A stretch of DNA of 49,132 bases, taken from an uncultured Clostridia bacterium (GTDB lineage: Bacteria; Bacillota; Clostridia; Oscillospirales; Ruminococcaceae). The notes under the pieces were generated by a model. The model did not search any database, was not told the origin of the DNA, and saw nothing but the letters and a program-made list of their open reading frames with translations. Of this stretch, positions 3 through 47,644 are shown piece after piece; within the stretch, counting starts at the first letter, position 1, and every line of letters begins with the position of its first letter. Position numbers and translations under genes: made by a program. The stretch lies in the NCBI GenBank assembly GCA_947631585.1, contig CANRLY010000001.1:1-49132 (forward strand), written 5' to 3'.

Positions 3-161
3 TGTATTGGTTGCAGAATGTGCGAGAGGAAGTGTCCCACCGGAGCGGTCAAAGTAGAGAACAACTTTGCAAAGATCGACTATTCCAAGTGTATCGGCTG
101 CGGTCAGTGCGTAGAAGCGTGCAAAATGGGCGCAATAGCCTATGTGACAGAGGCAAGATAA
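3..161 (+). CDS. 4Fe-4S dicluster ferredoxin-domain protein, C-terminal fragment (5' end outside window)
   Basis: Frame 3 reads CIGCRMCERKCPTGAVKVENNFAKIDYSKCIGCGQCVEACKMGAIAYVTEAR then TAA at 159-161. It carries two CxxCxxCxxxC cluster motifs. It is absent from the ORF track because no start codon lies in the window. Confidence 0.75.
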   Translation, partial: CIGCRMCERKCPTGAVKVENNFAKIDYSKCIGCGQCVEACKMGAIAYVTEAR

Positions 162-905
162 TTAGAGGCAAGAGGCAAGAGAGCCCCTGCTAGAAGCAAG
201 AAAATTAGAGGCAAGAGGCAAGAGAGCCCCACCCCCTCGCAACTTCGTTGCGTTTCCCCCTCCCCATTAGGAGGGGGATTCTTATGCGGCGGCTCCGCCG
301 CCGCAACGGTGACCTCGCTGCACCGCAGGTAGTTGGAATTACGCATTAGGGCAGCAAAGCCGCCCTAATCTTGCATCTTGCCTCTCGTTATCTTGCTTCT
401 AGCGGCTGCGGCAAGAAAGCCCCACCCTGCTAGAGGCAAGAAATTTAGAAGCAAGAGGCAAGAGAGCCACACCCCTGCTAGAAGCAAGAAATTTAGAAGC
501 AAGAGGCAAGAAAGCCCCACCCCCTAACGGCTAACGCCGTTTTCCCCCTCCCCATTGGGAGGGGGATTTTTATGCGGCGGCAAAGCCGCCGTACCGGTGA
601 CCCAACTGCACCGCAGGTTGTTGGGGCTGCATAGTCGGGCGGCTGGATAGCCAGCGATTAATTTGTTATAGCTGCGCCCACTTATAAAAAGTATTCCCCT
701 CTCCGTCAGCTGACGCTGACACCTCTCCCCAATCTGGGGAGAGGATATCGGGCGGCAAAGCCGCCGCAATCTTGCCTCTTGCTTCTAGCAGCTGAGGCAA
801 GAAGCAAGAAAGCCACCCCATTGGGGTGGCTGTGCGGCGGCTTTGCCGCAACGGTGAACACACTGCACCGCAGTTTTTCAATTCACGCAGTCGCCCTCTA
901 ACCTC
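139..905. repeat. Composite non-coding repeat tract: 48-nt direct units, inverted partial copies and reiterated three-hairpin modules
   Basis: 48-nt units (CTGCTAGAAGCAAGAAATTTAGAAGCAAGAGGCAAGARAGCCMCACCC) lie at ~139-186 (partial), 187-236, 427-474 and 475-523. Inverted partial copies lie at 367-403 and 768-790. Two ~100-nt direct copies of a hairpin module lie at 236-336 and 524-624 (CCCCCTCC/GGAGGGGG, GCGGCGG/CCGCCGC, GGTGACC..CTGCACCGCAGG), with a degenerate third at ~811-880. Confidence 0.8.
811..831 (-). terminator. Probable intrinsic terminator of the M23 peptidase gene
   Basis: Hairpin AGCCACCCC-ATT-GGGGTGGCT. On the minus strand it is followed by the T-rich TTCTTGCTTCTTGCC. It lies ~95 nt downstream of the stop at 925. 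Confidence 0.5.
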
Positions 906-40018: not shown

Positions 40019-40056
40019 CAAACCGCTGCGCTTGCAAGCGCAGCGGTTTGTTTTTG
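40019..40056 (+). terminator. Intrinsic terminator of the esterase gene
   Basis: CAAACCGCTGCGCT-TGCA-AGCGCAGCGGTTTG perfect palindrome followed by TTTTTG. Confidence 0.88.
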
Positions 40057-40103
40057 CGGCAGGCGTGAGTTGATTTTCTTCGCTTTCCTGCATCGGTAAG
40101 GTA

Positions 40104-40223
40104 GCTGCCTGCGGCTCGCCCTCGCTGCGAAGCAGCGAGGGTATGCGGCGGCAGCGCCGCCGCATACCGCCACGCCAACGGCGTGGCGGCGAGCCGCAGG
40201 CTCTGCCAAGACCCGCAGGCAGC
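40104..40223. repeat. GC-rich four-way-junction (cloverleaf-like) element
   Basis: The outer stem CCTGCGGCTCGCC (40108-40120) / GGCGAGCCGCAGG (40188-40200) encloses three hairpins: CTCGCTGC-GAA-GCAGCGAG, GGTATGCGGCGGC-AGC-GCCGCCGCATACC, and CCGCCACGCC-AAC-GGCGTGGCGG. A further alternative outer pairing is GCTGCCTGCGG / CCGCAGGCAGC (40104-40114 / 40213-40223). Confidence 0.8.
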
Positions 40224-41733: not shown

Positions 41734-41803
41734 TCGGGGGGCGGCTTTGCCGCCCCGACTGCCCCGAAGCTTCGCTTCGGGGCGCAGGCTGCGCCCACAA
41801 ACT

Positions 41804-41844
41804 GCGACCGCCAGCCCCCGGAGGGGGGCTGGCGGTCGCTTTTT
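41804..41844. terminator. Bidirectional intrinsic terminator (MATE gene on +, small peptide gene on -)
   Basis: 16-bp stem GCGACCGCCAGCCCCC / GGGGGCTGGCGGTCGC followed by TTTTT on the plus strand. It is the last of four consecutive hairpins spanning 41733-41844. Confidence 0.8.
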
Positions 41845-41860: not shown

Positions 41861-42007
41861 TCAGCAGCCGCAGTTGTTGTTGTCGCAGCCACAGTTGTTG
41901 GAGCAGCCGCAGTTGTTGCCGCAGCCACAGCCGAAACCGTTGTTTCCGGCAGCGATTATGAGAATAAGAATGATGATCCACCAGTAATTGCCGAATCCGT
42001 AGTTCAT
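41861..42007 (-). CDS. Unannotated 48-aa single-pass membrane peptide with Cys/Gly/Asn-rich tail
   Basis: My own translation is MNYGFGNYWWIIILILIIAAGNNGFGCGCGNNCGCSNNCGCDNNNCGC. ATG at 42007 is preceded by AAAGGAG at 8 nt, and the TGA is at 41861-41863. The terminator hairpin lies just downstream. The peptide is too short for the supplied ORF track. Confidence 0.7.
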   Translation of the reverse strand: MNYGFGNYWWIIILILIIAAGNNGFGCGCGNNCGCSNNCGCDNNNCGC

Positions 42008-42211
42008 GACAAGCACTCCTTTAATTAAATTATAAGACGAGAAGTTGGGTTTGCAGCGCCTTATAGTAACAGTTTATGGGAAAGATAAAAAAGTGTTACA
42101 GGCAATCTTTTCAAAGCGCCTGCATAAAATATTTCTGAAACGATGTTGCTGTATAAGTTGAAGCGGCAGCGCCAATATTTAAATCAGAAGCTTTGAAAAA
42201 GGAGGAACTGT

Positions 42212-44620
42212 ATGGACAGCTTTTCAATAAGCTCTGAGAACTTTACCGAAAGAGCCAGAGAGATACTGAAAAACGCACTTGCCGACGCAGGCAAACTGGG
42301 ACATACCTATGTGGGAAGCGAACACCTGCTGCTGTCAATGCTCAGAACGCCTGACTGCGCCGCAAATACTATACTTGTCAAAAATGGCATTACCCGCCGT
42401 GATGCGGAAAATAAAATTTTTTCGCTGATCGGAAAAGGTACTCCTTGCCGGCTGGACGCAGACGACTTTACTCCTACCGCAATGAAAATAATCAACGGCG
42501 CAGTTACCCTGGCTAACGGGTTCGGCTGCCGTAAAGCCGGAAGCGAACATCTGCTTACGCTCCTGCTCAGACAGTCGGAATGTTGCGCAGTCACTATGCT
42601 GAGAGAATTGGGCGCAGACCTTTCTAAATTGTATAACGACTGCTCCTCTGCCCACCGCAATGAACTTGCTTTCTCAGGCAGACCTAAAGAAAAACTCCCT
42701 AAATTGGAGCGCTACGGCAAGGAACTTACCAGAATATCCGATAATAAAAAGCCTGACCCCCTTATCTGCCGCAATAAGGAGATAAACCGCATGATAAGGA
42801 TACTTTCCCGGAGAACTAAAAACAACCCCTGCCTTATCGGAGAGGCTGGAGTTGGCAAAACTGCGGTGGCAGAGGGTCTTGCAAGAATGATAGTTGCCGG
42901 CAACGTCCCCGGGGAACTTGCCAGTAAGCGTGTCTTTTCGCTGGACCTGTCACTGCTGCTGGCAGGGGCAAAGTATAGAGGCGACTTCGAGGAACGCCTT
43001 AAAGCCTGCATAGACGAAACGGTCTCCGCCGGAAACGTTATACTTTTTATCGACGAGATACATTCTATAATCGGAGCAGGCGCAGCGGAAGGCGCAATAG
43101 ACGCCGCAAATATCCTTAAACCCCAGCTTTCCCGTGGTGAACTTCAGGTCATAGGCGCAACCACTTTCGAGGAGTACCGCCGCTATATCGAAAAAGACCC
43201 TGCCCTTGAAAGAAGATTCCAGCCGGTGATAATAGAAGAACCTGACGAAAAAACTACCCTTGAGATACTAAAGGGCATCGCCGCCGGCTACGAAGAACAC
43301 CACAAGGTCAAGATCAGAGAGGACGCTCTTGCGGAAACGGTCAGGCTTGCCGGAAGATATATAAACGACAGGTTTTTTCCGGATAAGGCGATAGATATAA
43401 TGGACGAAGCCTGTTCGGGAGTAAGGATACGATACGAAAATTCGGTGAAAAACGCCAAAAATATCTCCGATGTTTTCAACGACTATATTTCAGGCAGGAT
43501 AACCAAACAGGACTACCTGAGCGCACTTTCAAAAAAGGTCACCGGGGAAACGGTCTACGTCACGGCGAAAGACATGGCGGAGGTGGTCTCCCAGTGGACA
43601 GGGATACCGGCTGATTCCCTCTCAGAGACCGAGAGCCTGAAACTTCTCAGGCTGGAAGAGGAGCTTTCAAAACAGGTGATAGGTCAGCAGGAAGCGGTAA
43701 AAATTGTTTCCGAAGCGGTGAGAAGGGGCAGGACAGGCATAAGCGAAGCCGACCGCCCCATTGGGTCGTTTGTGTTCTTAGGGCCAAGCGGCGTAGGAAA
43801 GACCCATCTTTCAAAAGCTCTGGCAAAGTGTCTTTTTGCCAAAGAGGACGCCATAATAAGGCTGGATATGTCGGAGTATATGGAAAAGCACAATGTTTCA
43901 CGGCTGATAGGGTCTCCGCCGGGGTATGTAGGTTACGGGGAGGGCGGACAGCTCACCGAACAGGTCAGGAGGAAGCCTTACTCTATAATACTATTTGACG
44001 AGATAGAAAAAGCCCACCCGGACGTATACAATCTTCTTCTGCAAATACTGGAAGAGGGAGCTTTGACCGATGCCCAGGGGCGAAAGGTTCGTTTTGGGAA
44101 CACAGTGGTGATAATGACTTCAAACCTTGGGGCAAGGCAGGCGGCAGAGAAGAAGCCCATGGGTTTTGCGGAAAGCGTCAGGGGAAGCGGCGAATTGCGC
44201 CGTGAGATGACAGCGGAGCTGAAGAAGTTTTTTTCGCCTGAGCTTATCAACCGCATAGACGAGGTAGTGGTGTTCCGAAGCCTTGACAAAGGCGACCTGG
44301 CAGAAATAGCGAAATTGCAGTTAGCGGAGCTGAAAAAGCGAGCGAAGCAGGCGGGAATGTTGTTGGAATTTGACCGTTCGGTGGCAGCCGGAGTAGCGGA
44401 GCTTGCCCAGGCAGACAGCGACGGCAAGAGCAGCGGCGCAAGAGGGATAAGGCGGGTCATCTCACGGCAGATAGAGAACCGCATCAGCGGCTGCATACTG
44501 AAAGGTGAGCTGACCGCCGGCGGTCGTCAAGCGGTAGTAAAGTACGAAAGCGGCGGTTTTACGGTAGTTCCGGGCAAACACCCGGTCAAAGAAGCAAACG
44601 CCGAAAGCGTTACAGGGTGA
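42212..44620 (+). CDS. clpC: ClpC/ClpA-like AAA+ ATPase (two NBDs, Clp_N repeats, short middle domain)
   Basis: Clp_N repeats are present (VGSEHLLLSML, AGSEHLLTLLL). Walker A is GEAGVGKTA in NBD1 and GPSGVGKTH in NBD2. A ClpP-docking-type loop reads KKPMGFAE. The linker between the NBDs is only ~45 aa, with no evident UVR motif. Confidence 0.85.
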   Translation: MDSFSISSENFTERAREILKNALADAGKLGHTYVGSEHLLLSMLRTPDCAANTILVKNGITRRDAENKIFSLIGKGTPCRLDADDFTPTAMKIINGAVTLANGFGCRKAGSEHLLTLLLRQSECCAVTMLRELGADLSKLYNDCSSAHRNELAFSGRPKEKLPKLERYGKELTRISDNKKPDPLICRNKEINRMIRILSRRTKNNPCLIGEAGVGKTAVAEGLARMIVAGNVPGELASKRVFSLDLSLLLAGAKYRGDFEERLKACIDETVSAGNVILFIDEIHSIIGAGAAEGAIDAANILKPQLSRGELQVIGATTFEEYRRYIEKDPALERRFQPVIIEEPDEKTTLEILKGIAAGYEEHHKVKIREDALAETVRLAGRYINDRFFPDKAIDIMDEACSGVRIRYENSVKNAKNISDVFNDYISGRITKQDYLSALSKKVTGETVYVTAKDMAEVVSQWTGIPADSLSETESLKLLRLEEELSKQVIGQQEAVKIVSEAVRRGRTGISEADRPIGSFVFLGPSGVGKTHLSKALAKCLFAKEDAIIRLDMSEYMEKHNVSRLIGSPPGYVGYGEGGQLTEQVRRKPYSIILFDEIEKAHPDVYNLLLQILEEGALTDAQGRKVRFGNTVVIMTSNLGARQAAEKKPMGFAESVRGSGELRREMTAELKKFFSPELINRIDEVVVFRSLDKGDLAEIAKLQLAELKKRAKQAGMLLEFDRSVAAGVAELAQADSDGKSSGARGIRRVISRQIENRISGCILKGELTAGGRQAVVKYESGGFTVVPGKHPVKEANAESVTG

Positions 44621-44693
44621 GGGGAGTGCGGTTTGCACTGCCTGCCATGGACGAAAAGCACCCCTGCCCCAGCTGGTCATAAGCCCTAGTCCA

Positions 44694-45106
44694 AGCAAGC
44701 CCCACCGCCCGATGGCGGTGGGGGATTTGTCCGGGGCGGCGTTGCCGCCCCGAATACTCGTGCGTTCCAGCGGAACGCACGAAAACCAACTGCCAGCAAA
44801 TCCCAATCCCGGGGCAGGCGTTCGCCTGCCCCGACGGAAAGCACCATAGCCCGGTGTGGCGCAAATCCCATTTTGTGGAATATTTCGCAGTTTCGGCTTG
44901 CTTGGAACGGCAATCCCAGCCCGGCAGGAGTGCCTTTTGCTCCGATGCTGCCCCAGAGCAGAGGATAAAACGATTTTCGGCGAAACCGCCCTTTCTGCTG
45001 AAAGCAAGCCCCCACCGCCCGTTGGGCGGTGGGGGCTTTTTCCGGGGCGGCAACGCCGCCCCGGAAAACAACCCCCGTGCGTTCCAGCGGAACGCACGGG
45101 GGTTTA
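44694..45106. repeat. Multi-hairpin repeat cluster, copy 1 (contains the 268-nt direct repeat 44808-45075)
   Basis: Hairpins: CCCCACCGCC-CGAT-GGCGGTGGGG (44700-44723), CGGGGCGGC-GTTG-CCGCCCCG, GTGCGTTCC-AGCG-GAACGCAC, GGGGCAGGC-GTTC-GCCTGCCCC (44811-44832), GCCCCCACCGCCC-GTT-GGGCGGTGGGGGC plus T5 (45008-45041), and CCCCCGTGCGTTCC-AGCG-GAACGCACGGGGG (45072-45102). Confidence 0.85.
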
Positions 45107-45127
45107 AGTATCAGCAGGGTCTTGGTT

Positions 45128-46063
45128 TTATTTTCTGACGATAAGTATAACGATTATTACAACAAGAACTACCGCTGCCACGCCGATAAGAATGAACGGC
45201 AGCATGGAATTGCTTTCTTCCTCTGCTTCGGAAGAACTGCCGCTGTCTGTTGCGGAGGCGGTGTCCTCTATCGAAGAACTCTCCTCAACAGATGAGCTGT
45301 CCGCTGCTGAAGAGCTGTCCTCTACGGAAGAACTGTCCTCTTCAGAAGAACTGTCCTCTTCAGAAGAACTGTCCTCAACTGAGGAGTCGTCGGCTGCGGC
45401 TGCACCGTTTCCAGAAGTGAAATTGATAATTTCGTCAGCGTAGCCTTCCACCTTGTCGGTAGGAAGTCCGGATACTGTGAATTTTATGGAAACAGGCTGG
45501 TCGGACTTTTTCACCATACATTCACGGTTGGTGTAATCGATCAAAGGAATGTTCCAGCCGTTTATTATTTTGATAAGACCTTTGCCTTCACCCTGACCAT
45601 TATCCTCTACGCCGGTTTCAACTTCGCTGAGATCATAATCCACGCCGCCCTCTGAGTAGGAGTCGAGCTTAATTACCATGTCGGGGTAATCAACATACTT
45701 GAACACATCGCCGTCCTTGGCAACGGTGAATGTGGTGTCAAGTCCTACCCAACCTACAAAGTTATCGTCGTACTCGCCCCACCAGCCGGTAAGAGTTACC
45801 TCGTAAGAACCGTTTCCGGTTATATTTACGTCGGTAAAATCGGCGTCACAGGGTATATCACCGGTGTCCACAAAAATTTCCTGTCCCAAGGCGTTGCGGT
45901 GTTCCTATGTATCCCTGTACTGGAACGAGATACCGGCAGAGCCGTAGACAGTAACTTCGTCGGCAGTGGCAGCATCTTCTGCAAAAGCCGGCAAAGCGTT
46001 GGCTGCAACAACGACCGAAGCTGCCGCAGCGGAAAGTATTCTTTTCAGTTTCAAACAGATCAT
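45128..46063 (-). pseudogene. Cell-surface protein gene interrupted by an in-frame TAG (signal peptide + globular domain + Ser/Glu/Asp repeat stalk + C-terminal TM anchor)
   Basis: Track ORFs 45905-46144 and 45128-45889 are in the same frame. The minus strand reads ..GISFQYRDT-TAG(45907-45905)-EHRNALGQEIFVDTGD... The N-terminus is M(ICL)KLKRILSAAAASVVVAANALPAFA (ATG 46063, or TTG 46054 with a GAAAGGA SD). The C-terminus is MLPFILIGVAAVVLVVIIVILIVRK. Confidence 0.7.
45231..45398. repeat. In-frame 18-nt tandem repeat (about 9 units) encoding the SSxEDS stalk
   Basis: GAAGAACTGTCCTCTTCA and variants are iterated head to tail. Two units are identical. The minus-strand translation is SSVEDSSSEEDSSSEEDSSSVEDSSSAADSSSVEESSSIED. 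Confidence 0.85.
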
Positions 46064-46294
46064 CCTTTCGATTGAAAATTCAGTCGGGCAACCTGCCGTT
46101 TCGACTGTTAAAATAATTGTACAAAATTTTTCAGCTTTCTTCAACCGTTATTTTGTACAAATTAAAGTCTCGTCTCAGTGCAACTTTCACAAATACCGGC
46201 GGTTTGCCGACCTGTTCCGGCAGAACCGCTCTTTCGCTGCCCACCCTGAGCAGCGAACAAAACCAATTTCCGGCGAAACTGTCCTTTTGCGCTG

Positions 46295-46650
46295 TAAGCA
46301 AACCCCACCGCCCATCGGGCGGTGGGGCTATCTCGGGGGGCGGCAGCCCCAACCCAGGGCAGGCGTTCGCCTGCCCTGGAGGAAAGCACCATAGCCCCGG
46401 CGTGGCGCAAATCCAATTTTGTGGAAAATTCCGCAACTCCGGCTTGCTTGGAACGTCAATCCCAGCCCGGTAGGAGTGCCCATTCACGCCGACCACCCGG
46501 AACGCTGGGCAAAGCTAAACGCCCAGCAAATCGCCCTTTCTGCTGAAAGCAAGCCCCCACCGCCCGTTGGGCGGTGGGGGCTTTGTCCGGGGCGGCGCTG
46601 CCGCCCCGAAAACAACCCCAGCCCGCCCCCAACGGGGATGGGCTGGGGGT
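46295..46650. repeat. Multi-hairpin repeat cluster, copy 2 (contains the 268-nt direct repeat 46353-46619)
   Basis: It has the same order of blocks as copy 1 at a constant offset of 1545 nt: 46353-46480 matches 44808-44934, and 46532-46619 matches 44987-45075. The central ~52 nt are diverged but of the same length. Confidence 0.85.
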
Positions 46651-46777
46651 ATATTATCCTCAGTCTCAGCAGTTTGCCAACACCGTTAGTTGCCGGAATC
46701 TACTTCCTCCCCTGCCGGTGCTGAGACTCAGCAGAATAGAAGCTTTTCAGCACACCAATGAACCTGCAAACCTTTCC

Positions 46778-47644
46778 TCACTGCGCATTTTCCTCTGTGC
46801 CGCTAGACTCCGCCTGCTCGGTGGTTTTTATGCCCGTCAGGGCGCTGACGTCAAACATCGCCGCTGTGTCCGACATGACCGTCGGGAGCTTTCCGTCCCA
46901 CTTGTCAATAAATTCCATCAGAATAACGTTGTCGGTCAGCTGCTCGTTTTTCAGCCTGTACGCCTCCGCTTCCGCAGTGGCTTTCTCGATGGTCTGCTGT
47001 GCCTCTACCTTTATCCTCGCCAGATCCTGCTCGGCTTTGAGAGCCTCCTGCTGGGCGGTCTGCTTGGCTTCTATCGCACGGTTGAATTCTTCCGAAAAAT
47101 CAAAGTTCACAATGTTGAAAACTTCTATCGTCAGACCGTAAGGATTTATCTTCTCGCTTATCGCCTGCTCCATCTGGGAAGATATCGAAGCCCTTTCAGT
47201 GATGAGTTCCTCCGCAGTGTATTTTGCGGAAACGGACTTCACACACTCCTGAATGGCTGGATTTATTATGATGTTCTCAAAATCCACCCCTACGTTTTTG
47301 TAAATTTCCGCCGAAGCCGACTGGTTCACCCTGTAGTTTATGGCAACTTTTGAAGAAATGGTCTGAAGATCCGATGAAGCCGCAGTGGACTCCACCTCCG
47401 TCTTGAGGACACGGTTGTCTATCTGGACTATCTGCGAAACAAACGGCAGCTTCAGATGGAAACCCTCCTCCAGCACCGTGGGAGATACCTCTCCCAGCGT
47501 TACCACAACTCCGCTGTGTCCGGGTCTTACCACGGAAAAACAGTTGAACAGCACTATCAGCGCCGCCAGTATCACAGCCCCGATGGCAATTAGTTTTCCG
47601 GCGCTTTTGCTTGACTTTGGTTTAAGATTGATAACGTCCGACAT
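46778..47644 (-). CDS. SPFH/band-7 (prohibitin-like) membrane protein
   Basis: An N-terminal TM segment (LIAIGAVILAALIVLF), then the PHB-domain blocks VVRPGHSGVVVTLG, QTISSKVAINYRV and YGLTIEVFNIVNFDFSEEF, then a coiled coil (EAKQTAQQEALKAEQDLARIKVEAQ). Confidence 0.9.
   Translation of the reverse strand: MSDVINLKPKSSKSAGKLIAIGAVILAALIVLFNCFSVVRPGHSGVVVTLGEVSPTVLEEGFHLKLPFVSQIVQIDNRVLKTEVESTAASSDLQTISSKVAINYRVNQSASAEIYKNVGVDFENIIINPAIQECVKSVSAKYTAEELITERASISSQMEQAISEKINPYGLTIEVFNIVNFDFSEEFNRAIEAKQTAQQEALKAEQDLARIKVEAQQTIEKATAEAEAYRLKNEQLTDNVILMEFIDKWDGKLPTVMSDTAAMFDVSALTGIKTTEQAESSGTEENAQ

What the first reader, a model, noticed from the sequence alone, without database searches (positions are those of the whole stretch)
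44808..46619. About 268-nt direct repeats flank the surface-protein gene, with compensatory changes in the stems
Segments 44808-45075 and 46353-46619 align at a constant 1545-nt offset. There are two conserved blocks (~128 and ~88 nt, roughly nine-tenths identical by eye) around a diverged centre of equal length. Between copies, the outer pair of one hairpin changes G:C to A:T on both arms (GGGGCAGGC..GCCTGCCCC against AGGGCAGGC..GCCTGCCCT). Loops differ freely (GTTG/AACG/GCTG; CGAT/GTT/ATC) while stems stay intact. This indicates selection on structure. Direct repeats also make the enclosed gene excisable by recombination, which would be an on/off or cassette-exchange mechanism. The ~95 nt between the hairpins (GCACCATAGCCCGGTGTGGCGCAAATCCCATTTTGTGGAA..CTTGGAACGGCAATCCCAGCCCGG) is conserved but has no function I can assign.
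Basis: seen in the sequence. Interest (0 to 1): 0.65.

Follow-up and report, generated by a model that had tools for sequence, protein, structure and literature searches.

The report
Strain-variable hairpin repeats flanking a gene
The two ~270-nt repeats are real copies of a species-specific, non-coding repeat built from very stable DNA hairpins. Between strains it comes and goes, swaps parts, flips its hairpin loops and has turned the enclosed surface-protein gene around, so it is an instructive but essentially ordinary recombination hot spot rather than a new RNA or a gene switch.

Summary
In detail: 44802-45075 and 46348-46619 are 83% identical (E 2e-72), with conserved blocks (87-100%) around a 39%-identical centre.

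Each full unit runs H4 hairpin, ~100-nt core, centre, tail, then H1 and H2 hairpins, and each is preceded by a partial older copy.

No Rfam family matches. No copy was found elsewhere in the window, in related species, or in genome, metagenome, viral, plasmid or phage collections.

Twelve contigs of the same species (Oscillospiraceae near Porcipelethomonas) show at least five structural haplotypes:
- no unit;
- unit B only, as an A/B chimera;
- both units (the window);
- gene plus one unit inverted between the same flanking genes, in two samples with identical breakpoints, one carrying an A-type unit and one a B-type unit.

No haplotype lacks the gene.

Loops at seven hairpin positions are reverse complements between strains, and rearrangement breakpoints lie in hairpins. 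The G:C to A:T "compensatory" change is real, but replication template switching also explains it. The core shows no covariation.

The gene is broken (TAG and/or a frameshift) in every haplotype with unit B upstream, and intact in those without.

Best reading: a lineage-specific mosaic palindromic repeat (BIME/MITE-like) evolving through DNA-level recombination.

The parts
44693..44782 (.). Partial unit A0 downstream of the ClpC-like gene. It holds hairpins H1a (44699-44724), H2a (44730-44754) and a short H3a (44758-44782).
   Evidence: 82% identical to the tail of unit A, 45002-45098. Hairpins listed. H1a is present in all haplotypes. H2 and H3 follow it in all except the inverted ones.
44802..45075 (+). 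Full unit A (A-type). Parts: H4 hairpin 44810-44833, core 44834-44935, centre 44936-44984, tail 44985-45009, H1 45006-45038 (followed by CTTTTT), H2 45042-45064.
   Evidence: Absent from conspecific contigs L015, L016, L017 and L018. The window's extra DNA is 311 nt bounded by H2-type hairpins.
45070..45104 (-). H3, a 16-bp hairpin followed on the minus strand by GTTGTTTTCC. It is the likely intrinsic terminator of the enclosed gene.
   Evidence: (I19). It stays attached to the gene's 3' end in every haplotype, and its loop never flips.
45128..46054 (-). Enclosed gene: signal peptide, ~170-aa domain of unknown family, Ser/Glu/Asp-rich 18-nt repeats, C-terminal membrane anchor. It is interrupted by an in-frame TAG at 45905-45907.
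   Evidence: TGG (Trp) replaces TAG in L001, L018, L023 and L015-17. Only 22 homologues were found in 5.8 billion proteins.
46116..46144 (-). Promoter-like site (TTGAAG-17-TACAAT) of the enclosed gene.
   Evidence: a consensus match only. It moves with the gene in the inverted haplotypes.
46217..46355 (+). Partial unit B0: end of core, A-like centre, tail, H1 (46301-46329, loop ATC) and a degenerate H2 (46337-46355).
   Evidence: nhmmer match to model positions 87-174. 79% identical to 44952-45052. Absent from L018, L025, L001 and L023.
46348..46619 (+). Full unit B (B-type). Parts: H4 46354-46379 (outer pair A:T), core 46380-46480, B-type centre 46481-46529, tail 46530-46554, H1 46551-46583, H2 46586-46610.
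   Evidence: Confirmed by independent contig L027 at 99.9%. Absent from L018 and L025. Chimeric B/A in L015. Found in the opposite orientation and attached to the gene's 3' end in L023.
46609..46655 (-). H5 hairpin, followed on the minus strand by TTGTTTTCG. It is the likely terminator of the SPFH/Band-7 gene (46778-47644, minus strand).
   Evidence: I16. Present in all haplotypes, with loop AAC, ATC or GAT.

Best explanation
The two repeats are copies of a lineage-specific, non-coding mosaic repeat.

Structure: a unit of ~250-310 nt is made of very stable, perfect GC-rich palindromes (H4/H2 at one end, H1-H2 at the other) around a ~100-nt core and one of two alternative ~50-nt centres. It sits in the terminator region between convergent genes.

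How it evolves: by DNA-level processes driven by the palindromes and by the 90-130-nt conserved blocks. (i) Replication template switching or cruciform-type recombination across hairpin arms flips loops and makes paired stem changes in one step. (ii) Recombination or template switching between similar hairpins adds, deletes or inverts whatever lies between them, whether a 3-nt loop, a 250-nt unit or the 1.4-kb gene cassette. (iii) Homologous exchange between units makes chimeras.

Function: some hairpins (H3, H5 and H1 with its T-run) probably act as intrinsic terminators for the neighbouring genes. The core itself is most likely passenger DNA with no function of its own.

Shown: the repeat, its modules, the strain polymorphism, the loop flips, breakpoints in hairpins, chimeric units, and absence from every other sequence searched.

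Inferred: the template-switch or recombination mechanism, the terminator role, and the lack of function of the core.
For: - Repeat and module structure.
- At least five structural haplotypes among 12 conspecific contigs at 95-99% identity: no unit (L018; L025 at site B); unit B only (L015; site A is also empty in L016 and L017); both units (window, L008, L027); inverted cassette with an A-type unit (L001) or a B-type unit (L023)..
- Reverse-complement loop states at seven orthologous hairpin positions: H1a GAT/ATC; H2a GTT/AAC; H1 of unit A GTT/AAC; H4 of unit B GTTC/GAAC; H1 and H2 of the unit-B tail GTT/AAC; H5 GAT/ATC..
- Breakpoints lie in hairpins. Site A's extra 311 nt is bounded by H2 hairpins. 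The left junction of the inverted haplotype is at the right arm of H1a, and its right junction is an H2-type hairpin replacing the related H4.
- L015's unit carries B-type SNPs in the 5' core and an A-type 3' core plus centre. L023 carries a B-type unit where L001 carries an A-type unit, with identical junctions.
- No covariation in the core. A 1-nt indel inside the conserved core argues against coding.
- No Rfam match.
- No recombinase or transposase among ~40 window ORFs.
- Other intergenic regions of the window hold unrelated hairpin/repeat clusters, so this appears to be a habit of the genome.
- Template switching is documented to give one-step compensatory changes and loop inversion (PMC8794818).
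Against: - The rest of the genome is not available, so a dispersed multi-copy (mobile) family cannot be excluded.
- Units occur at two or three distinct positions, each with an 'empty' allele, and are bounded by similar palindromes. That also fits transposition.
- The window and inverted arrangements cannot be related by one simple event. At least an inversion plus ~450 nt of gain or loss is needed, so the history is inferred, not reconstructed.
- The 87-96% conservation of core and tail between A- and B-type units, against 39% in the centre, could reflect function rather than recombination.
- No transcript data exist.
Confidence: 0.55

Rival explanations
1. The unit is a non-autonomous mobile element (MITE/REPIN-like) bounded by similar palindromes. 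A transposase encoded elsewhere in the genome moves it in trans, and it inserts next to H2-type terminator hairpins.
For: - Presence/absence alleles at two sites within one species.
- Similar palindromes at both ends: H4 GGGGCAGGC-GTTC-GCCTGCCCC versus H2 GGGGCGGC-GTT-GCCGCCCC.
- Two sequence subtypes, found in either orientation relative to the SPFH gene.
- Every filled site has an H2/H4 hairpin on both sides of the unit.
Against: - All copies found lie within 2 kb of one another. There are none elsewhere in the 49-kb window, in ~100 kb from related species, in 185,579 species genomes, JGI metagenomes or viral contigs at 20-23-mer level, or in plasmids and phages.
- ORFs spuriously called across the unit occur only at this locus among 15 billion proteins.
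- There is no short target-site duplication and no transposase in the window.
- The 'empty' site B keeps a tail-like remnant, which suggests deletion rather than a site that was never occupied.
Confidence: 0.2
2. The unit is a functional RNA element maintained by selection on RNA structure. It could be a small RNA, or a 3'-UTR stabiliser or terminator-insulator module. This is essentially the first reader's view.
For: - Very strong predicted folding on both strands, z about -8.7.
- A paired G:C to A:T change in H4.
- H1 followed by a T-run, and H3 and H5 followed by T-runs on the minus strand, look like intrinsic terminators.
- The core is 87% conserved between subtypes.
Against: - No Rfam family matches.
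- No promoter-like site lies inside or just upstream of the unit on its own strand.
- No covarying pair occurs in the core, only one-sided or breaking changes.
- The unit is dispensable: strains exist with 0, 1 or 2 copies.
- Its orientation relative to flanking genes differs between strains.
- Loop flips change the RNA loop sequence but not the DNA palindrome.
- It is not conserved beyond one species.
Confidence: 0.12
3. It is a programmed, recombinase-driven invertible or shufflon-like locus that switches expression of the surface-protein gene.
For: The gene cassette is found in both orientations in independent samples. The gene encodes a surface protein, a typical target of phase variation.
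Against: - The inverted segment carries the gene together with its own promoter-like site, so orientation alone should not switch it.
- Both inverted contigs have identical junctions. They also differ from the other arrangement by ~450 nt of gain or loss, which indicates one historical event rather than reversible switching.
- No recombinase is present in the window.
- No sample yielded both orientations.
Confidence: 0.05
4. The variants are assembly artefacts caused by palindromes and repeats in short-read metagenome assemblies.
For: Several contigs break exactly at H1 (L008, L020, L021, L024), so the assemblers do struggle here.
Against: - Each arrangement is supported by two or more independent samples: window/L027/L008; L015/L016/L017; L018/L025; L001/L023.
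- The inverted contigs carry junction sequence that does not occur in the window, so it cannot come from mis-traversal of the window's graph.
- Hairpin arms are 8-16 nt, shorter than usual assembly k-mers. This last point is my own reasoning, not a tool result.
Confidence: 0.03

Closest known systems
REP / BIME (repetitive extragenic palindromes and bacterial interspersed mosaic elements) of Proteobacteria
   Same: Both are intergenic and lie mostly after 3' ends of genes. Both are clusters of short GC-rich palindromes combined with other conserved motifs into mosaic units. Both are strain-variable, with proposed terminator or mRNA-end roles and genome instability at palindromes (PMC2817692, PMC3733652).
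   Different: Here the palindromes are perfect, with 3-4-nt loops. They have no GTAG or CGTC-type tag that fits the published definition. No high copy number and no RAYT gene were found. The unit includes a ~100-nt non-palindromic core. The host is a Firmicute (Oscillospiraceae), where these families were not reported in PMC3733652.
MITEs and related small repeats of Firmicutes and Neisseria (BOX/RUP/SPRITE, bcr1, Correia elements). Named from my own knowledge, not tested here.
   Same: Units of a few hundred nucleotides with similar inverted or palindromic ends, presence/absence polymorphism between strains, intergenic location, and possible effects on neighbouring gene expression.
   Different: No target-site duplication was found, no dispersed copies and no sequence similarity to anything in the collections searched. 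All copies sit at one locus.
Template-switch mutations and small hairpin-loop inversions (PMC8794818, PMC5453318, PMC8604942)
   Same: Reverse-complemented loops between identical arms, clustered multi-base changes that keep the stem perfect, and arm homogenisation. This is the same footprint seen here at seven hairpins.
   Different: Those studies concern rRNA, human and yeast sequences, and mostly single events. Here many hairpins at one bacterial locus are polymorphic at once, and the same modules also mark breakpoints of kb-scale rearrangements.
Invertons / phase-variable invertible promoters of gut bacteria (from my own knowledge)
   Same: A surface-protein locus is found in two orientations in natural populations of a gut or rumen-type bacterium.
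   Different: The whole gene with its promoter is inverted, not a promoter alone. There is no nearby invertase. The breakpoints are fixed and accompanied by sequence gain or loss.

Membership tests
Any Rfam RNA family | Covariance-model score at or above the family's gathering threshold | tested here: not met
   Only two tRNAs reach threshold in the window. In 44550-46800 the best hits score 26 bits or less against thresholds of 40-50 or more, and they are driven by generic GC hairpins.
REP / BIME | High copy number (over 100 per genome) dispersed in intergenic regions (PMC2817692) | tested here: inconclusive
   H1, H4 and the core occur only at this locus in 49 kb. One extra H2-like hairpin lies at 41738. 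The rest of the genome is not available.
REP / BIME | GTAG or CGTC tetranucleotide tag. For CGTC REPs: an 8-9-bp stem starting with A·T pairs, a 4-5-nt loop and a CCA tail (PMC3733652) | tested here: not met
   CGTC abuts H4/H2b in some copies only; window unit B has CTCC. Stems are 9-16 bp and all-GC at the base, and loops are 3-4 nt.
REP / BIME | Associated RAYT (IS200/IS605-type tyrosine transposase) | tested here: not met
   No Y1 transposase or any other transposase among ~40 window ORFs. Not testable genome-wide.
MITE | Terminal inverted repeats | tested here: inconclusive
   Both ends carry similar palindromes (H4/H2 and H2). Because they are palindromes, they are direct and inverted repeats at the same time.
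MITE | Short target-site duplication and an empty site that lacks the element precisely | tested here: not met
   Filled and empty alleles differ by units bounded by whole hairpins of 19-25 nt. Empty site B keeps a tail-like remnant.
MITE | Multiple dispersed copies related to an autonomous element | tested here: not met
   No copies outside the locus in any sequence searched. The full genome was not available.
Intrinsic (rho-independent) terminator | GC-rich stem-loop followed by a T-run on the transcribed strand, at a gene's 3' end | tested here: met
   H3 and H5 on the minus strand are followed by TTGTTTTC directly after the surface gene and the SPFH gene. H1 on the plus strand is followed by CTTTTT. 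This is met by sequence only; termination itself was not assayed.
Inverton / site-specific invertible element | Inverted repeats flanking a regulatory segment, a dedicated recombinase, and both orientations within one population | tested here: not met
   No recombinase in the window. The inverted segment includes the gene and its promoter. The two inverted contigs have identical junctions and differ from the window by about 450 nt of gain or loss. Within-sample mixtures could not be tested.
Integron gene cassette (attC) | attC site with R''/L''-L'/R' arms, extrahelical bases and a GTTRRRY core, plus an integrase and attI nearby | tested here: not met
   The hairpins are perfect, with 3-4-nt loops and no conserved GTTRRRY boundary. 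The gene has its own promoter-like site. No integrase is present in the window. The attC features are listed from my own knowledge.

The most novel reading that the evidence does not exclude
The unit may be a new kind of hairpin-homing module. It would copy itself, in either orientation, between any two H2-type terminator palindromes by replication template switching, without a transposase. Alternatively, the many flip-flopping palindromes may form a fast, reversible switch that affects termination and expression of the adjacent surface-protein gene. The co-occurrence of unit B upstream with inactivation of the gene would then be cause and effect.
Probability: 0.1. Interest if true: 0.7.

Novelty: new member of a known kind. 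Interest (0 to 1): 0.4.

Why it matters
- **A caution for covariation arguments.** In perfect DNA palindromes, paired stem changes and "free" loops can be produced by template switching or palindrome recombination. They are then not evidence for a selected RNA. Here seven hairpins show flipped loops within one species.
- **A documented hot spot in an uncultured bacterium.** In this Oscillospiraceae species a terminator-region repeat generates presence/absence variants, chimeras and a gene-cassette inversion within about 2-4% sequence divergence.
- **A caution for MAG work.** Such loci break short-read assemblies and can mislead synteny or pan-genome analyses of MAGs.
- **If mobile.** If the unit proved to be mobile or regulatory, it would be a tractable small model for hairpin-targeted DNA dynamics in Firmicutes.

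Tried and rejected
- **Rfam:** gathering and permissive scans found no family.
- **Exact-pattern scans of two conserved core blocks:** 0 hits in viral contigs, 0 then 2 in metagenomes, 0 then 2 in species genomes. All four hits are chance 20-mers whose flanks do not align.
- **Six-frame translation of the core as one concatenated protein query:** no hits, but it also failed to recover the known L001 ORF. I therefore discard this negative.
- **Replacement for that search:** an exhaustive phmmer search recovered the control (P0143, 1.9e-39) and nothing else real. P0144 and P0145 are unrelated repeat proteins.
- **Plasmid and phage BLAST:** nothing.
- **CGTC-tagged REP idea:** rejected after reading the definition.
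- **attC/integron and inverton models:** rejected (see the membership tests).
- **Coding potential of the core:** rejected. There is a 1-nt indel between copies inside the conserved block and no consistent start codon.
- **Orthologous-locus comparison in other species:** the SPFH gene is followed there by a MatE gene, and homologues of the surface gene sit in unrelated contexts without the repeat.
- **Single-event path between the window and inverted arrangements:** I could not derive one, and the history remains unresolved.
- **Relic unit in the ClpC 3' flank:** a weak resemblance of 44639-44662 to the H4 arm plus core start. Three of 500 shuffles score as well, so it is only suggestive.
Full report
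**1. The observation**

The sequence at 44500-46900 contains the repeat described. Self-BLAST aligns 44802-45075 with 46348-46619 at 82.8% over 279 columns, E 1.9e-72. The repeat finder gives three collinear blocks at offsets 1545, 1546 and 1545.

Identity by block:

| Block | Identity |
|---|---|
| Left flank | 35% |
| H4 hairpin | 92% |
| Core (~100 nt, one 1-nt indel) | 87% |
| Centre | 39% |
| Tail | 96% |
| H1 hairpin | 100% |
| H2 region | 88% |
| Following hairpin (H3 vs H5) | 52% |

The G:C to A:T change in the outer pair of GGGCAGGC-GTTC-GCCTGCCC is there.

Three things were missed.
- Each full unit is preceded by a partial, older unit. A0 is 44693-44781 and holds H1a, H2a and a short H3a. 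B0 is 46217-46345 and holds the end of the core, an A-like centre, the tail, H1 and a degenerate H2.
- The loops are related by reverse complementation (section 4).
- The enclosed gene has an in-frame TAG.

**2. Anatomy and surroundings**

A unit reads: H4 (a 10-11-bp perfect stem), GAC/GGA, core, centre, tail (CCCTTTCTGCTGAAAGCAAG), H1 (15-bp perfect stem, followed by CTTTTT in unit A), H2 (11-bp stem). It is then followed by H3 at site A or H5 at site B.

H4 (GGGGCAGGC-GTTC-GCCTGCCCC) is H2 (GGGGCGGC-GTT-GCCGCCCC) plus one base pair, so the unit is bounded by similar palindromes.

Both strands fold far better than shuffles, with z of -8.8 and -8.6, because the fold is a chain of perfect hairpins.

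The flanking genes are:
- a ClpC-like AAA+ ATPase on the plus strand, ending at 44620;
- an SPFH/Band-7 gene on the minus strand, ending at 46778;
- a PSP1 gene.

The enclosed minus-strand gene (46054 to 45128) encodes a signal peptide, a ~170-aa domain with no Pfam family, Ser/Glu/Asp-rich 18-nt repeats and a C-terminal membrane anchor. Only 22 homologues exist among 5.8 billion proteins.

On the minus strand, H3 and H5 are each followed by TTGTTTTC directly after the surface gene and the SPFH gene. By sequence they look like the intrinsic terminators of those genes.

Other intergenic regions of the window hold unrelated hairpin and repeat clusters. These are at 140-880 (period ~288), 40019-40168 and 41738-41839. 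Mosaic hairpin clusters therefore seem to be a habit of this genome.

**3. Is it known, and is it elsewhere?**

- No Rfam family matches.
- No further core copy exists in the window.
- Exact scans with two conserved core blocks gave 0 hits in viral contigs. They gave 0 then 2 hits in JGI metagenomes and 0 then 2 in 185,579 species-representative genomes. All four hits are chance 20-mers.
- Plasmid and phage BLAST found nothing.
- A concatenated six-frame protein query found nothing, but it also missed a known positive, so I discard it.
- An exhaustive phmmer search of one open frame across the unit, against 1.84 billion representative proteins, recovered the positive control (P0143, 1.9e-39) and nothing else real.
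- Cluster look-ups of ORFs spuriously called across the unit led only back to this locus.
- A profile HMM of the unit against all 196 kb held, including about 100 kb from related species, found only the known copies plus B0.

Every copy I could find lies at this one locus of one species. The complete genome was not available.

**4. Comparison across strains (the decisive evidence)**

SPFH homologues place the organism in Oscillospiraceae near Porcipelethomonas.

In more distant relatives (SPFH 78-84% identical) the SPFH gene is followed by a MatE gene. Neither the surface gene nor the repeat is present there.

Twelve contigs from other samples belong to the same species at 95-99% identity. Their maps, in window orientation with loops in brackets:

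| Contig | Architecture |
|---|---|
| window | ClpC \| H1[GAT] H2[GTT] H3 H4[GTTC] unitA> H1[GTT] H2[AAC] H3 <gene B0 H1[ATC] H2deg H4[GTTC] unitB> H1[GTT] H2[GCT] H5[AAC] \| SPFH |
| L015 | ClpC \| H1[GAT] H2[GTT] H3 <gene B0 H1[ATC] H2deg H4[GAAC] unit(B/A chimera)> H1[GTT] H2[GTT] H5[ATC] \| SPFH |
| L018 | ClpC \| H1[ATC] H2[AAC] H3 <gene H5[ATC] \| SPFH |
| L001 | ClpC \| H1[GTC] gene> H3 H2 H1 <unit(A-type) H2[GTT] H5[GAT] \| SPFH |
| L023 | ClpC \| H1[ATC] gene> H3 H2 H1 <unit(B-type) H2[GTT] H5[ATC] \| SPFH |

Support for each arrangement:
- L008 and L027 confirm the window's arrangement.
- L016 and L017 confirm the empty site A.
- L025 confirms the empty site B.
- L020, L021 and L024 begin at the H1 of the unit-B tail, with loops AAC/AAC or GTT/GTT.

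Five conclusions follow.

(a) Both units are dispensable and polymorphic.
- At site A the window has 311 extra nucleotides bounded by H2-type hairpins.
- At site B it has ~370 extra nucleotides (46237-46606).
- The empty allele at site B keeps a tail-like remnant.

(b) The gene with its promoter and one unit lies in the opposite orientation in two independent samples.
- Both junctions are identical in the two samples.
- The left junction is at the right arm of H1a.
- The right junction is an H2-type hairpin that replaces H4.

(c) The two centre types are alternative alleles, not a relaxed spacer.
- L023 carries the B-type centre where L001 carries the A-type.
- L015's unit is a chimera: B-type 5' core, then A-type 3' core and centre.

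(d) Loops at seven orthologous hairpin positions occur as reverse-complement pairs between strains, while the arms stay identical. H3 never flips.

(e) None of the six contigs that extend from SPFH past H5 (L001, L015, L018, L023, L025 and the window itself) lacks the gene. The predicted excision was not seen.

**5. State of the enclosed gene**

- L001, L018 and L023 encode an intact 302-aa protein.
- The window and L027 have TAG in place of TGG.
- L015, L016 and L017 have a 1-nt deletion in the signal-peptide region.
- L008 has both lesions.

Every haplotype in which B0 or unit B was seen upstream of the promoter has a broken gene. L016, whose site B was not covered, is also broken. Every haplotype without them has an intact gene. 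This may be cause and effect, for example an insertion ~90 nt upstream of the -35 silencing the gene, which then decays. It may equally be shared ancestry. I cannot tell which.

**6. How it most likely works**

The footprints are:
- flipped loops between unchanged arms;
- clustered changes that keep or extend a perfect stem (window versus L008 at H4 of unit B: four changes within 12 nt against a 97%-identical background);
- breakpoints in palindromes;
- chimeric units.

These are the footprints expected from replication template switching and recombination across inverted repeats. That process is documented to create one-step "compensatory" changes and loop inversions (PMC8794818; see also PMC5453318 and PMC8604942).

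Because each palindrome is both a direct and an inverted repeat of its relatives, exchange between two of them can delete, duplicate or invert whatever lies between. The 90-130-nt conserved blocks allow ordinary homologous exchange between units.

I therefore read the element as a lineage-specific mosaic palindromic repeat whose evolution is dominated by DNA-level dynamics. Some hairpins double as terminators, and the core is passenger DNA. Confidence 0.55.

- Shown: the structure, polymorphism, flips, breakpoints and chimeras.
- Inferred: the mechanism, the terminator role and the lack of core function.

Rival explanations:
- a trans-mobilised MITE/REPIN-like element (0.2);
- a selected RNA element (0.12);
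- programmed inversion (0.05);
- assembly artefact (0.03).

Evidence for and against each is given in the Rival explanations section.

Against an RNA function:
- the core has no covarying pair;
- there is no promoter-like site on the unit's strand;
- the copy number is variable;
- the orientation relative to neighbouring genes is not conserved.

**7. Comparison with known systems**

It works most like REP/BIME clusters and small MITE-like repeats: intergenic, palindrome-rich, mosaic, strain-variable and close to terminators.

It is not a member of the described families.
- It has no GTAG or CGTC tag as defined. CGTC REPs have 8-9-bp stems starting with A·T pairs, 4-5-nt loops and a CCA tail, and were not reported in Firmicutes (PMC3733652).
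- No high copy number was shown.
- No RAYT or other transposase is present in the window.
- No target-site duplication was found.

It is not an inverton or an integron cassette (see the membership table).

**8. Verdict**

However, the proposed reading (an RNA structure under selection, and a gene made excisable by the repeats) is only partly borne out.

I class it as a new, species-restricted member of the known class of palindromic mosaic intergenic repeats. It has an unusually clear population-level record of hairpin flip-flop and hairpin-bounded rearrangement. Interest is moderate (0.4).

Noticed in passing
window 45905-45907 (TAG); window ~45993 (the CC that is reduced to C in L008, L015-L017): The enclosed surface-protein gene is inactivated in two different ways in different strains: a TGG to TAG nonsense change and a 1-nt deletion in the signal peptide. 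L008 has both. It is intact in the three haplotypes that lack unit B upstream.
   Followed up: yes
window 140-880: A second, unrelated intergenic repeat cluster. It has ~288-nt-period direct repeats (253-355 vs 541-643, 81%), 43-48-nt GAGGCAAGAGGCAAGAGAGCCCC-type repeats and several GC-rich hairpins (the same hairpin at 255 and 543). It lies between a truncated ferredoxin-like ORF and an M23 peptidase gene.
   Followed up: partly
window 41861-42016 (minus strand) and 41738-41839: A small ORF encodes a hydrophobic N-terminus followed by a Gly/Cys/Asn-rich tail (MNYGFGNYWW...GCGCGNNCGCSNNCGCDNNNCGC) with no Pfam hit. Next to it is a cluster of three strong hairpins, one of H2 type.
   Followed up: no
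window 45242-45385: 18-nt tandem repeats encoding (D/E)SSS(V/E)E vary in copy number between strains: 308 codons in the window's reading frame against 302 in L001, L018 and L023.
   Followed up: partly
window 46653-46680 (minus strand) and 46652-46671 / 46719-46738: The best promoter-like match of the region (TTGGCA-16-GATAAT, 10 of 12) lies between the SPFH stop codon and H5, inside a 20-nt inverted repeat. It is conserved in all haplotypes. It would read into unit B antisense in the window, but into the unit's sense strand in the inverted haplotypes.
   Followed up: no
one search hit list (P0087, P0103, P0104, P0106, P0114): Proteins of anaerobic rumen fungi (Neocallimastix, Anaeromyces) are 68-69% identical to this bacterial SPFH/prohibitin protein. 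That suggests bacterium-to-fungus gene transfer and a rumen or gut habitat for the organism.
   Followed up: no
window 44639-44662: The ClpC 3' flank (GCCTGCCATGGACGAAAAGCACC) resembles the H4 right arm plus the core start (GCCTGCCCCGACGGAAAGCACC). It may be a relic of a still older unit that is present in all haplotypes. Three of 500 shuffles score as well.
   Followed up: partly
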